Of a stretch of DNA of 64,000 bases, positions 42,301 to 45,300 are shown in pieces. Numbering within the stretch: position 1 is the stretch's first letter; each line of letters starts with the position of its first letter. The stretch comes from an uncultured Gemmatimonadales bacterium (GTDB lineage Bacteria > Gemmatimonadota > Gemmatimonadetes > Gemmatimonadales > GWC2-71-9), in contig CAWJIM010000006.1 in NCBI GenBank assembly GCA_963842945.1, forward strand, positions 64,001-128,000, in the 5' to 3' direction. A program made the position numbers.

Positions 42301-45300
42301 AACCAGCCGTCTGGGTGGCAAGGCTTAGATGCTGCTGCAGATCGGGCAGCATGCTGGAGGCTACCTGTTTCAGCAGCTGCACCTTCCCGCTCTCGGATTC
42401 CCGCTGAAATAGCCTCACCTCGTCGGCGTGCTGCGTGACCATTTCGGTCATGTAGGCCTTATCGAAGGAGGAGCGGCCCATCCGGCTGAAGCGGTCGAAT
42501 GCCTGCTGGTGCTGTCTCAGGAGGACCGGTGCCGGGAAGGCAGCCTGCTTCGCTGCTGCGGCCAAATCCTGGTTGGTCTTGGAATAGTCGCTTACCATCC
42601 GCTTGCCAAAGTCAACGACGGCCGGGCTGGAGCCTTTCTTTTCCGCCAGCTTCCCCAGCTTCACCTGCAGTAGACCAACACTCCCGGCTGTTTGAATGAA
42701 GACGCTGTCCGCAGCCAGCGACACTGGCTGCTGTGCCGCCGCCGGGGTAACGCCTGCGGCAGCGCTCAGCATCAAACCGACCAGCGCTGCGGGAACGAGC
42801 ATTTTGACGGCCATTTCCTTCATCCTTTCCCTGTGTCGTTTTCTACTCATCGGGGGTCACTAGCCTTGGACGGCCGGTTGCCCCAAATGGTTTCGTCCGA
42901 GACGGGGGCGCAACCGTAACAGTCTTGCAACTGTCCAATCCTGAGTGGAGGAAGTCGTGGCGCTGAAACGAAGAGACGCGACCGGGCCTAAGCTCGATCG
43001 CGTCTCTGATTGCCTTGCTGGGGCCCCGGACCAGACGTCCTGCTCCCGGGACCTATAACTCTGGGATGTTAAACCGGGGTTTCCACCGAGGCTGGAGCGG
43101 CCACGGGATGGATGATCCAGGCCTCTGCCCGCCGCATGCTCCCGGGTCATCCGGGAATACAGCGAGATCTCGGGGTCGAACAGAAATCGGAAGAGGAGCC
43201 GGGTCCAGGAGCTGTGTGCTGTTAGATCGACATACCACTCCGGCGCGATGGCGCGGATCCGGGGCAAACGGTGCCACGGAACTGAGGGAAAGTCGTGGTG
43301 TTCGTTATGGTATCCGACGTTGAACGTCAGGAGATTCAGCTTGCCGTAGTAGCTGAAGGTTTCCTGTTCTCCTGCCTCGACGAGATAATGCCGCTGGATC
43401 CAGCGGGCTCCCAGAGGGTGCAGGCCGATGGAGAAGAAGAACGACAGGACCAGGTAGGCGAGCGACTTGGGCCCCCACATCAGATATACGCTCAGGTTGA
43501 CGCCGATCTGGATCAGGAGGTTCGTGGTGGTCCAGGCGTCAAGCGGTGGCACTGCCTTGACCCGGAATGAGCGCACCGCCTGGAACAGCGGATAGAACAT
43601 GAGCCAGAGCGCCTTCCCCAGGGGTGAGCGGCCGACCAGCCGAGCCTCCCAAATGCTGGGTATGTCGGCATCCAGGTCGTAGACGCCCTGAAAGGCGTGA
43701 TGCTTCAGATGGTACTTCTGAAAGGAGAACGAGCCCGGCACAAAGAGCGGAAGGTTAGCGACGATACCGGTGAGCACATTGGGCAGCCGTCGCCGGAAGA
43801 CCAGACGGTGGGCGCATTCATGGATCATGACGAACAGCCCATGGCTGGCGAACGCTCCAACGCTGTAGGCCAGAACAAGTACGAGCCAGATCGGCCGGTG
43901 TGCCACAAACCACGCAACGCTGAACTGCAGGCTTACCAGTCCCAGGATGCACCAGAAGGTGACCGGGCTTGATCCAATGAGTTTCCGAATCTCAGGATGG
44001 CGACGGAGTATCTGTTTGGTGCGGTCGCGGTGAGGCTCGGGGCCGGCGGAATATAAAAATCCGGACTGATGCTCTGGCAACGAGGTTCTCGTCGTAAAGA
44101 GGGAATGTCCTTCGGGAAATGCAGTATGGGCCCAGCGGACTGCGCGGAAATATACCAGTCTTCACCGCGTGGATACTAGCCGCGCCTTCGGCTCCCTTGT
44201 TCTTTGACGGCGCCCGGGCCAGGGTGCAACTAGGTCGTTCTCCTCTTCGCGGCCAACCATCACCGGCGCTGAACCCTTGAAGTAGTAGGTTGGTTTGCCC
44301 GGCTCTTGCGATCCCGGGTGGCACCTCCTTCTACTGCTCTCCCTTCTCGAGACTCCCATGTTACTGCTTAGCCTGGCTCTCCTCACTCTCCCGGTCGACA
44401 GCGCGGTGGTGCGTGACATCGAAGTCGCCGATGGTGAGACCCTCCGCACTACTTCCGTCGGGACCGGCCAGCCGATCGTCCTGATTCCGGGACTCTTCGG
44501 TGGCGCATTTGGCTATCGAAAAATCACCGGACCACTGGTGGCCCAGGGCTATCGTGTCATAGTGGTGGAGCCACTTGGCTACGGCTCCTCCTCTCATCCC
44601 AAGAAGGCGGACTACTCGTTCGGCGCCCAGAGCGACCGCGTGGCCCGCACCCTCGACCAGTTGAGCATCAAGCGCGCGCTCATCGTCGCCCAATCCAGCG
44701 GGGCCGCCATTGCCTTTCGCCTCGCGGTCAAGCGGCCCGACCTGGTGCGGGGGCTTCTCTCCATTGATGGCGGTCCCGCCGAGAGCGCGGCCACGCCGGG
44801 AATGAAGAAGGCATTCAAGTTCGGCGGCGGGCTGGTCAAGCTCACCATGGATGAATCCAGGCTGAGACACGAGGTGCGCCGTGAGATCGTGAAGAACACG
44901 GGAGACTCCAGCTGGGTAACCGACGCGGTGGTTCGGAGCTACACCGCCGGGCAAACCGCCGACCTCGGCGGGTCGATCGATGCGTTCCACCAAATGGCCA
45001 AGTCGAAGGAGAACACCTCGCTTGCCGATCGGCTTCATCAGTGCCTGGCGCCTGTGCTGTTACTGGTGGGCTCAGTGGCCCACCCATCCGAGATCCCGGA
45101 TGAACAGCGGCAACTGCTCAAAACCAAGCTTCGCGCCTTCAGGATGGAAACCGTCCGCGGGGCAGGCCAGTTTATTCAGGAAGAGCAGCCTCCGTCGTGC
45201 TCTCTGCCATAACGCGGCTGAACCGGGTGGCGCGCTAGCAGGGAGAAATCCATTGCCCTCGTAGGCAGGTCCCGCTATTATCATGCGGCGAGGACAGGGG

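What a model noticed while it worked through the whole genome (the two positions that open the first line are those of the whole stretch)
42860..44080. Bacterial ceramide operon plus a eukaryote-type DES1 sphingolipid delta4-desaturase
The genome carries a bacterial-type ceramide operon spt-bcerS-cerR-PAP2 (C24 195042-199083) and, elsewhere, g01401 (C6 106860-108080), a 406-aa Lipid_DES + FA_desaturase protein 45% identical over its length to plant dihydroceramide delta4-desaturase DES1. Boldest reading: this bacterium makes sphingosine-type (4,5-unsaturated) ceramides, joining the bacterial ceramide route to the eukaryotic last step. New would be sphingolipids in Gemmatimonadota and a bacterial source of true sphingosine bases.
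Evidence so far: Swiss-Prot: g01401 45.0% to rice DES1-like (query 8-314, subject 19-322 of 328, E 8e-87), 44.5% Arabidopsis, 41.6% Drosophila; Pfam Lipid_DES+FA_desaturase. g04452/g04453 50.6% to Sphingobacterium Spt (E 7e-95; split by an indel), g04454 Acetyltransf_1 with best hit 'ceramide synthase', g04455 Epimerase-family 'reductase', g04456 PAP2, all plus strand and abutting. relatives.tsv: Lipid_DES in 13 of 102 genus, 77 of 1362 order, 103 of 2019 phylum, 2449 of 189784 bacterial genomes. Literature searches calls 169,170,173,174 found nothing on this; PMC11334938 and PMC11087976 have 0 hits for 'Gemmatimon' and 'desaturase'.
(Added by a program. Inside this text positions count along the whole contig: contig position 64,001 is position 1 of the stretch shown here. 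"Call 12" and the like, gene names such as g00115 and contig names such as C1 are that model's own, and its searches are not shown. The text may have been shortened before it was handed on; [...] marks where a part breaks off. The agent that wrote the report below was given it as the finding of a first reader that could run no searches.)

Follow-up and report, generated by a model that had tools for sequence, protein, structure and literature searches.

The report
Bacterial DEGS-type ceramide desaturase gene
This uncultured soil-type bacterium carries a relative of the enzyme that puts the 4,5 double bond (or a 4-hydroxyl) into animal and fungal ceramides, and it also has genes to make its own ceramide; such genes are common in bacteria and untested, so it is a good test case rather than a surprise.

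Summary
The gene is real: a DES1/DEGS-family membrane desaturase with the Lipid_DES domain and three histidine boxes. The 406-aa length is probably a one-base frameshift; the closest relatives are 332-338 aa. The spt-bCerS-cerR-PAP2 operon on C24 is real and conserved; spt is split by two indels in this assembly and intact in relatives. The desaturase is not a recent eukaryotic import: it lies in an all-bacterial branch apart from named animal and fungal DES1, and homologues are common and already auto-annotated. Support for a ceramide substrate: desaturase-bearing genomes mostly hold spt or bCerS (Acidobacteriota 8 of 8 against 62 of 242), and a same-branch Bacteroidota homologue sits inside a complete sphingolipid operon. 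Here it is unlinked and accessory (18 of 102 genus genomes). Double bond versus hydroxyl cannot be told. No paper on a bacterial member was found in ten searches. This scan noted both the desaturase and the operon before in other genomes.

The parts
42860..44080 (-). ORF as assembled (406 aa, TTG start): DES1/DEGS-family membrane di-iron desaturase/hydroxylase
   Evidence: AlphaFold2 model of residues 1-318 mean pLDDT 94.6; best Foldseek hits are membrane di-metal folds such as AlkB and SCD1
43964..44062 (-). Lipid_DES N-terminal domain (residues 7-39)
   Evidence: Pfam PF08557, 41.2 bits, cut-off 23
43808..43822 (-). Histidine box 1, HECAH (residues 87-91)
   Evidence: H87 and H91 invariant in 60 of 60 aligned sequences
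43697..43711 (-). Histidine box 2, HLKHH (residues 124-128)
   Evidence: H124, H127, H128 invariant in 60 of 60
43295..43309 (-). Histidine box 3, HNEHH (residues 258-262)
   Evidence: H258 and H261 invariant, H262 in at least 90%
43095..43115 (-). Approximate place of one extra base relative to the two closest relatives; shifts the tail out of their frame
   Evidence: DNA alignment A1
43069..43071 (-). TAA in the register of L002/L003: probable true stop (protein of about 336 aa)
   Evidence: relatives 332-338 aa
42860..43068 (-). Tail of the 406-aa ORF that is probably not coding
   Evidence: inference; not covered by reads
42239..42850 (-). Downstream neighbour, DUF4142 protein; no known link to lipids
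   Evidence: Pfam PF13628
44295..45212 (+). Divergent upstream neighbour, alpha/beta hydrolase; link to the desaturase not shown
   Evidence: Pfam PF00561; no NCBIfam family over its cut-off

Best explanation
[quoted passage not shown] The ceramide comes from the unlinked C24 operon: Spt joins serine and an acyl chain, bCerS adds the N-acyl chain, CerR reduces the 3-keto group, and the Aur1-like PAP2 protein probably adds a phosphate-linked head group (the genome also has an inositol-phosphate synthase beside a CDP-alcohol transferase). The desaturase is an accessory tailoring step kept by about one in six of the genus. Shown: family, catalytic residues, fold, presence of the operon, co-occurrence. 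Inferred: substrate, position, product, electron donor, and that the frameshifts are assembly errors.
For: Both Pfam domains over cut-off. At 36 chosen conserved positions the window protein matches four named animal and fungal DES1 proteins except at residues 89, 90 and 92 inside and after box 1; these include N109, H128, N187, N254 and A279, spaced like human N113, H132, N189, N255 and A280, whose variants lose activity (PMC10940770; mapping by spacing through a nematode protein, human sequence not in session). The family is not known to act on anything but sphingolipids (PMC5037126). E. coli BL21 spt, yghO and the epimerase of its spt cluster each have their best G000 hit in the C24 operon; a relative's intact Spt scores 430 bits to a solved Spt against 276 to Kbl; the only other paralogue is Kbl in a tdh-kbl pair. 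Co-occurrence: Acidobacteriota 8 of 8 desaturase genomes have bCerS against 62 of 242 others; Bacteroidota 24 of 26 have Spt against 36 of 54 controls; Gemmatimonadota 12 of 12 against 97 of 168, and 0 of 71 spt-lacking genomes have the desaturase; 47 of 50 tested desaturase genomes have a bCerS-like gene. A homologue of the same branch (L058, 57% identical) lies in one same-strand run spt-bCerS-cerR-MIPS-PgpA-DUF5686-CDP-alcohol transferase-DUF4833-fatty acid hydroxylase-desaturase-PAP2_3; L060 and L142 repeat part of it; a homologue of another branch lies 5 kb from spt-cerR-bCerS (L132).
Against: No lipid or enzyme data. Unlinked here, and core ceramide genes lie within about 9 kb in only 2 of 122 genome loci and 0 of 80 metagenome loci, many of them short. 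Co-occurrence is inflated by kinship: all 12 Gemmatimonadota cases are in one family where Spt is in 88 of 89 (p 0.87 within the family). In Planctomycetota only 3 of 5 have a strong bCerS against 98 of 245 (p 0.32); G403 and G422 have a more distant desaturase and no Spt found with this query. Two Bacteroidota with the desaturase lack Spt but have a cysteate acyltransferase-type gene. It is the only PF00487 match in G000. spt is broken in this assembly. Spt scored under the NCBIfam cut-off (534 against 640). In Caulobacter CerR is periplasmic (PMC11087976), whereas desaturase histidine boxes face the cytoplasm (general knowledge), so access to dihydroceramide is unexplained.
Confidence: 0.72

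Rival explanations
1. Sub-case of the best explanation that would undo the first reader's headline: the enzyme is mainly a C4-hydroxylase (DES2-like) and the product is a phytoceramide, not a sphingosine-type ceramide.
For: DEGS2 is bifunctional (PMC10140171, start of abstract only); JGI names part of the closest homologues 'sphingolipid 4-desaturase/C4-monooxygenase'; in soil, ceramides and phytoceramides correlated with an Acidobacteriota ASV (PMC9969633). Phytosphingosine-type bases in Bdellovibrio stolpii are recalled, not from a call.
Against: Most characterised family members desaturate (general knowledge). The stretch after box 1 that I recall as tied to DES2 hydroxylase activity (AFG-type motif, recalled) is not present: the window reads HECAHRLVFRRRLP.
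Confidence: 0.2
2. The bacterial branch acts on another lipid: acyl chains of glycerolipids or amino lipids (it would be the cell's only membrane desaturase), or another position of the base.
For: Only PF00487 match in G000 (genome 87% complete); lies outside the branch of named DES1 proteins; unlinked in most genomes; two Planctomycetota have a homologue without Spt.
Against: Lipid_DES domain and DES1-specific residues are kept; most of the genus lives without it, so it is no housekeeping desaturase; operon context in L058 and L132; enrichment with spt/bCerS; the Spt-less Planctomycetota proteins are on another branch (L137).
Confidence: 0.14
3. The family's bacterial substrate is the sulfonolipid (capnine) base, or sphingolipids scavenged from soil eukaryotes, and not the cell's own ceramide.
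For: G768 and G859 hold a same-branch desaturase, no Spt, and a gene of the cysteate acyltransferase type (L227: 526 bits to the solved enzyme against 229 to Spt). 4E-unsaturated capnine in Cyclobacterium is recalled; only the reference title was seen.
Against: G000 has no such gene: the query finds only Spt and Kbl. Enrichment with own synthesis genes argues against scavenging. For this organism it widens the family's range and does not replace ceramide.
Confidence: 0.07
4. The pathway is dead in this strain: spt is a true pseudogene and the desaturase has a real frameshifted tail.
For: spt in three frames; extra base in the desaturase tail; the CDP-alcohol transferase is also split.
Against: Frameshifts are scattered through the assembly: 3 of 29 loci matched to relatives' proteins are split, and unrelated genes in the window are too; the spt pieces are 91-97% identical to an intact relative; Spt found in 88 of 89 family genomes; the desaturase break is behind the conserved domain.
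Confidence: 0.07

Closest known systems
Eukaryotic dihydroceramide delta4-desaturase DES1/DEGS1 and bifunctional DES2/DEGS2 (Pfam PF08557 + PF00487)
   Same: Domain pair, three histidine boxes, length of about 335 aa once the tail is corrected, conserved residues at positions of human loss-of-function variants; 39-43% identity to four named members.
   Different: Sits in a separate, all-bacterial branch (19 rows, SH-aLRT 95) apart from the branch with named animal and fungal DES1 (24 rows, 97); HECAH instead of HEISH/HEITH; no tested activity; electron donor unknown.
Bacterial ceramide pathway Spt / bCerS / CerR (Caulobacter crescentus; spt cluster of E. coli BL21)
   Same: All three orthologue candidates present; best genome hits of the E. 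coli genes, 42%, 35% and 31% identical.
   Different: One compact operon with a fourth, Aur1-like gene; no dedicated acyl carrier protein or acyl-ACP synthetase in the operon; Caulobacter's tailoring enzyme CC_0202 is a DesA-type hydroxylase of the N-acyl chain (PMC11324152), not a DES1.
Bacteroides thetaiotaomicron inositol sphingolipid cluster BT_1522-BT_1526
   Same: G000 holds MIPS (66% to the L058 protein), a CDP-alcohol transferase and a PAP2_3 protein with Aur1-like motifs; BT_1522 is the PI-dihydroceramide synthase (PMC9246714).
   Different: Genes are in two places; PgpA-like phosphatase not found with the one query used; the PAP2 match to the L058 Aur1-like protein is weak (27% over 129 aa); the Bacteroides product is dihydroceramide-based and that paper's main text has no hit for 'desatur'.

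Membership tests
DES1/DEGS sphingolipid delta4-desaturase family | N-terminal Lipid_DES domain (PF08557) | tested here: met
   41.2 bits, cut-off 23
DES1/DEGS sphingolipid delta4-desaturase family | FA_desaturase domain with boxes HxxxH, HxxHH, HxxHH | tested here: met
   H87-H91, H124-H128, H258-H262
DES1/DEGS sphingolipid delta4-desaturase family | Membrane di-metal desaturase fold with transmembrane helices | tested here: met
   pLDDT 94.6; Foldseek hits AlkB and SCD1; hydrophobic segments. No PDB chain matched by sequence at E up to 1.
DES1/DEGS sphingolipid delta4-desaturase family | Full-length similarity and family-specific residues shared with eukaryotic members | tested here: met
   39-43% over 287-340 columns; 33 of 36 chosen conserved positions the same as in four named members
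Canonical eukaryotic DES1/DES2 clade | Nests inside the branch of named animal and fungal DES1 | tested here: not met
   Separate all-bacterial branch in a quick IQ-TREE run of 77 rows, SH-aLRT only, deep nodes open; same split in a FastTree run of 191 rows
DES1/DEGS sphingolipid delta4-desaturase family | Converts dihydroceramide to 4E-ceramide (or phytoceramide) | not testable with these tools
   Needs expression and lipid mass spectrometry
Bacterial ceramide pathway (Spt, bCerS, CerR) | Spt rather than Kbl, BioF or cysteate acyltransferase | tested here: met
   Relative's intact protein (91-97% to the G000 pieces): 430 bits to solved Spt, 276 to Kbl, 246 to cysteate acyltransferase; best NCBIfam model is the CFB Spt but under its cut-off, 534 against 640
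Bacterial ceramide pathway (Spt, bCerS, CerR) | bCerS: large GNAT-fold acyltransferase | tested here: met
   PF00583; 35% over 381 aa to E. coli BL21 YghO, sole hit in G000. That YghO is bCerS is recalled; the Caulobacter protein was not in session.
Bacterial ceramide pathway (Spt, bCerS, CerR) | CerR: epimerase-type NAD-binding reductase beside spt | tested here: met
   PF01370; best G000 hit of the epimerase next to E. coli spt, 31%; conserved position in 6 of 6 relatives fetched
Bacterial ceramide pathway (Spt, bCerS, CerR) | Intact reading frames in this genome | tested here: inconclusive
   spt split over three frames here, intact in 6 of 6 relatives fetched; no reads laid on this locus
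Aur1/BT_1522-type phospho-head-group transferase | PAP2_3 domain with Aur1-like catalytic motifs, and an identified donor lipid | tested here: inconclusive
   PF14378 66 bits; FPSSH and HYxxD motifs align with the L058 protein, 27% over 129 aa; no PDB match by sequence; donor not testable

The most novel reading that the evidence does not exclude
[quoted passage not shown] This Gemmatimonadota lineage would then build an inositol-phosphoceramide on a true sphingosine-type base from a bacterial core route, an Aur1-like transferase and a DES1 relative, so that part of the 'eukaryotic' unsaturated ceramide in soil is bacterial. The wide bacterial diversity outside the eukaryotic branch also leaves open that the family is of bacterial origin.
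Probability: 0.35. Interest if true: 0.7.

Novelty: new member of a known kind. Interest (0 to 1): 0.42.

Why it matters
A recent review states that bacteria make dihydroceramide and not ceramide (PMC10191378), yet about 46% of ceramide structures in anoxic Black Sea water, attributed to bacteria, have one double-bond equivalent in the base (PMC11334938; position not given, and an oxygen-dependent enzyme would not explain anoxic producers). An active bacterial DES1 relative would supply a missing enzyme, would weaken the use of unsaturated ceramides as eukaryotic markers in soil, and would give a small, easily expressed model of human DEGS1, which had no match among solved structures here. The test is easy in cultured Chitinophaga, Puia or Mucilaginibacter strains that carry the same branch. 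This particular genome is one of many carriers and has a frameshift-prone assembly.

Tried and rejected
Conserved neighbourhood: none across phyla among 80 loci, nor among immediate neighbours of 15 further loci, apart from L132 and one glycosyltransferase beside L125. Metagenome scan with the operon-borne L058 protein: cluster genes in 1 of 80 loci. Reads: only short contigs of related soil organisms; none spans the suspected indel, and RNA-library contigs do not show transcription. Promoter scan: 0 sites; terminator-like sites near chance. Composition: no island; GC3 0.755 against 0.75-0.83 for six neighbours. NCBIfam: no model over cut-off for the desaturase. Recent eukaryote-to-bacterium transfer: not supported; no one-clade test was run, so no donor is claimed. 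Contamination: unlikely, since neighbours are shared with close relatives L002 and L003. Paper searches that found no description of a bacterial DES1/DEGS member or of Gemmatimonadota sphingolipids: (one search was for the Bacteroides cluster). PMC8891067 is not held and the supplement of PMC11334938, which lists producer phyla, could not be read; both may name Gemmatimonadota. No complex prediction was run: no binding claim is made. Viral collections were not searched.
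Full report
1. Observation. The window is G000:C6:64001-128000 of a 4.3-Mb, 24-contig genome, 87% complete and 6% contaminated; its nearest named relatives are Gemmatimonadales MAGs. The ORF at 42860-44080 (minus, 406 aa, TTG start) carries Lipid_DES (residues 7-39, 41.2 bits) and FA_desaturase (65-280, 96.9 bits), with boxes HECAH 87-91, HLKHH 124-128 and HNEHH 258-262. 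It is single-copy and the only PF00487 match in the genome. The five closest relatives are 80-91% identical over residues 1-318 and 332-338 aa long. The window has one base more than L002 and L003 near 43105, and a TAA at 43071-43069 in their register, so the true protein is probably about 336 aa. Public contigs did not cover this site. Frameshifts are scattered in this assembly: 3 of 29 loci matched to relatives' proteins are split.

2. The operon on C24. Four plus-strand genes follow each other: an aminotransferase class I/II protein, a GNAT protein, an epimerase-type reductase and a PAP2_3 protein. The first lies in three frames here and is intact, about 401 aa, in 6 of 6 relatives fetched; the order spt-bCerS-cerR is kept in all 6 and PAP2 follows in 5 of 6 at the threshold used. 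The intact relative scores 430 bits to a solved serine palmitoyltransferase, 276 to Kbl and 246 to a cysteate acyltransferase; its best NCBIfam model is the Bacteroidota Spt, under the cut-off. The other paralogue in G000 is Kbl, behind threonine dehydrogenase, and no cysteate acyltransferase was found. The spt, yghO and epimerase genes of the E. coli BL21 spt cluster each find their best G000 hit in this operon; that yghO and the epimerase are bCerS and CerR is recalled. The genome also has an inositol-phosphate synthase behind a split CDP-alcohol transferase at C24:129834-131860. In Bacteroides the like genes and an Aur1-like protein make inositol-phospho-dihydroceramide (PMC9246714, passages).

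3. What the desaturase is related to. 5666 of 8000 scored candidates reach E 1e-30, and many carry the automatic JGI name 'sphingolipid delta-4 desaturase' or 'sphingolipid 4-desaturase/C4-monooxygenase'. Identity to four named animal and fungal DES1 proteins is 39-43%. In a quick IQ-TREE run (77 rows chosen from 191; SH-aLRT only; the careful search did not finish) the window protein lies in a 19-row all-bacterial set (95), and the four named eukaryotic proteins lie in a separate 24-row set (97) that also holds three Bacteroidota proteins. 38 rows have no known source and deep nodes are open, so no direction of transfer is claimed. Gemmatimonadota sequences group together and GC3 matches the neighbours: no sign of a recent import. 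The model (pLDDT 94.6) matches membrane di-metal enzymes such as AlkB and SCD1. At 36 chosen conserved positions the protein equals the four named DES1 proteins except at 89, 90 and 92. Among them are five residues spaced like human N113, H132, N189, N255 and A280, whose variants lose most or all activity (PMC10940770, passages).

4. Does it act on ceramide? Distribution: 18 of 102 genus genomes have Lipid_DES, while bCerS is in 34 of 36 genus genomes drawn. In phylum draws of genomes at least 90% complete, centre genome left out: Gemmatimonadota, desaturase 12 of 180 and Spt 109 of 180, all 12 with Spt, none among 71 without, but all 12 are in the family where Spt is in 88 of 89. Acidobacteriota, 8 of 250, all with a strong bCerS, against 62 of 242. 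Planctomycetota, 5 of 250; 5 of 5 with any bCerS-like hit against 103 of 245, but 3 of 5 against 98 of 245 at E 1e-60. Bacteroidota, 26 of 250; 24 of 26 with Spt against 36 of 54 controls taken from the 224 others. One-sided Fisher p values are 0.002, 3e-5, 0.014 or 0.32, and 0.01; kin are not independent, so these overstate. Of 50 of the 80 genomes, 47 have a bCerS-like gene; the three misses are small MAGs in which Spt was not found either. Exceptions among the draws: G403 and G422 (other branch, no Spt found), and G768 and G859 (same branch, no Spt, but a cysteate acyltransferase-type gene).

5. Gene context elsewhere. In a Flavipsychrobacter MAG (L058, L108) a homologue of the window's branch lies in one same-strand run: spt, bCerS, cerR, MIPS, PgpA, DUF5686, CDP-alcohol transferase, DUF4833, fatty acid hydroxylase, desaturase, PAP2_3, with 19 bases between hydroxylase and desaturase. 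L060 and L142 repeat the part from MIPS or DUF5686 to PAP2_3. In G823 (L132) a homologue of the eukaryote-like branch lies 5 kb from spt-cerR-bCerS, between a phospholipase D-like gene and a CDP-alcohol transferase. These are the exceptions: core ceramide genes were near in 2 of 122 genome loci and 0 of 80 metagenome loci. In the window the neighbours are a DUF4142 protein and an alpha/beta hydrolase.

6. Mechanism. Most likely (0.72) the enzyme uses oxygen, a di-iron centre and an unknown electron donor to oxidise C4 of the long-chain base of ceramide made by the C24 operon. I put about 0.5 on mainly 4E desaturation and 0.2 on mainly C4 hydroxylation. Other lipids (0.14), capnine or scavenged lipids (0.07) and a dead pathway (0.07) remain. 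One gap: CerR is periplasmic in Caulobacter (PMC11087976, passages), so a cytoplasm-facing desaturase would need the 3-oxo intermediate, a flipped substrate, or a different CerR location here.

7. What is known. Papers seen as passages only: PMC11324152, PMC11765627, PMC2444003, PMC10191378, PMC5037126, PMC9246714, PMC9969633, PMC3463246, PMC8366399, PMC10002949, PMC10940770, PMC11087976. PMC11334938: passages and section 19, supplement unreadable (36); it extends predicted producers to 40 phyla. PMC10140171: listing and start of abstract. PMC8891067: not held. Searches found no paper on a bacterial DES1/DEGS member or on Gemmatimonadota sphingolipids; most subscription journals are not covered. 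From memory, not from a call: 4E-unsaturated bases are reported in Flectobacillus major, Arcicella and myxobacterial sphingolipids and in Cyclobacterium sulfonolipid, so the chemistry would not be new to bacteria, only the enzyme. Earlier notes of this scan: 11 findings hold the words for bacterial ceramide desaturases and 24 for Gemmatimonadota ceramide or sphingolipid (8 shown of each). They are unchecked and not independent support.

8. Verdict. A real member of a known enzyme family, in a genome with a real bacterial ceramide operon. The bacterial branch is wide, auto-annotated and, as far as searched, untested. The link to ceramide has fair comparative support; the product is undecided. 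New member of a known kind; interest 0.42.

Noticed in passing
L058:1-9915 with L108 (G093:C6): Complete sphingolipid run in a Flavipsychrobacter MAG: spt, bCerS, cerR, MIPS, PgpA, DUF5686, CDP-alcohol transferase, DUF4833, fatty acid hydroxylase, DES1-like desaturase, Aur1-like PAP2. DUF4833 and DUF5686 become candidates for sphingolipid handling or export.
   Followed up: partly
L060:1-8400: The same cluster (MIPS 87% identical to L058) on a contig of a MAG labelled Azovibrio restrictus; either misbinned Bacteroidota DNA or a transferred cluster.
   Followed up: no
L132:962-14678 (G823): spt-cerR-bCerS followed by an SDR, a FabZ-like and two ketosynthase-like genes, facing a PLD-like gene, a desaturase of the eukaryote-like branch and a CDP-alcohol transferase; beside them a glycosyltransferase, a class V aminotransferase and a TPP enzyme that look like aminoethylphosphonate genes (label by inspection). 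Candidate phosphono-sphingolipid locus.
   Followed up: partly
L220:7823-9879 (G000:C24:129820-131880): CDP-alcohol transferase (split by a frameshift) followed by myo-inositol-phosphate synthase, 66% identical to a Bacteroidota protein: capacity for inositol lipids in this genome.
   Followed up: partly
G768 (L115, L226) and G859 (L110, L227): Bacteroidota with a DES1-like gene, no Spt found, and a cysteate acyltransferase-type gene: candidates for sulfonolipid delta4 desaturation.
   Followed up: partly
window:47633-56571: Several serine/threonine kinase genes with long C-terminal regions in a row, some split by frameshifts; typical of Gemmatimonadota by my recall.
   Followed up: no
window:31651-34233: Convergent ATP-dependent DNA ligase-like (LigC) and primase-polymerase (LigD) genes, named from their translations only.
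   Followed up: no
L001:11126-13938 (G000:C24): A plastocyanin/azurin-type copper protein lies convergent to the ceramide operon, followed by an ECF sigma factor and a probable anti-sigma gene.
   Followed up: no
Gemmatimonadota draw: Spt is nearly universal in some families (88 of 89, 8 of 9) and not found in others (0 of 19, 0 of 9; 4 of 37): a sharp lineage split in sphingolipid capacity within the phylum.
   Followed up: no
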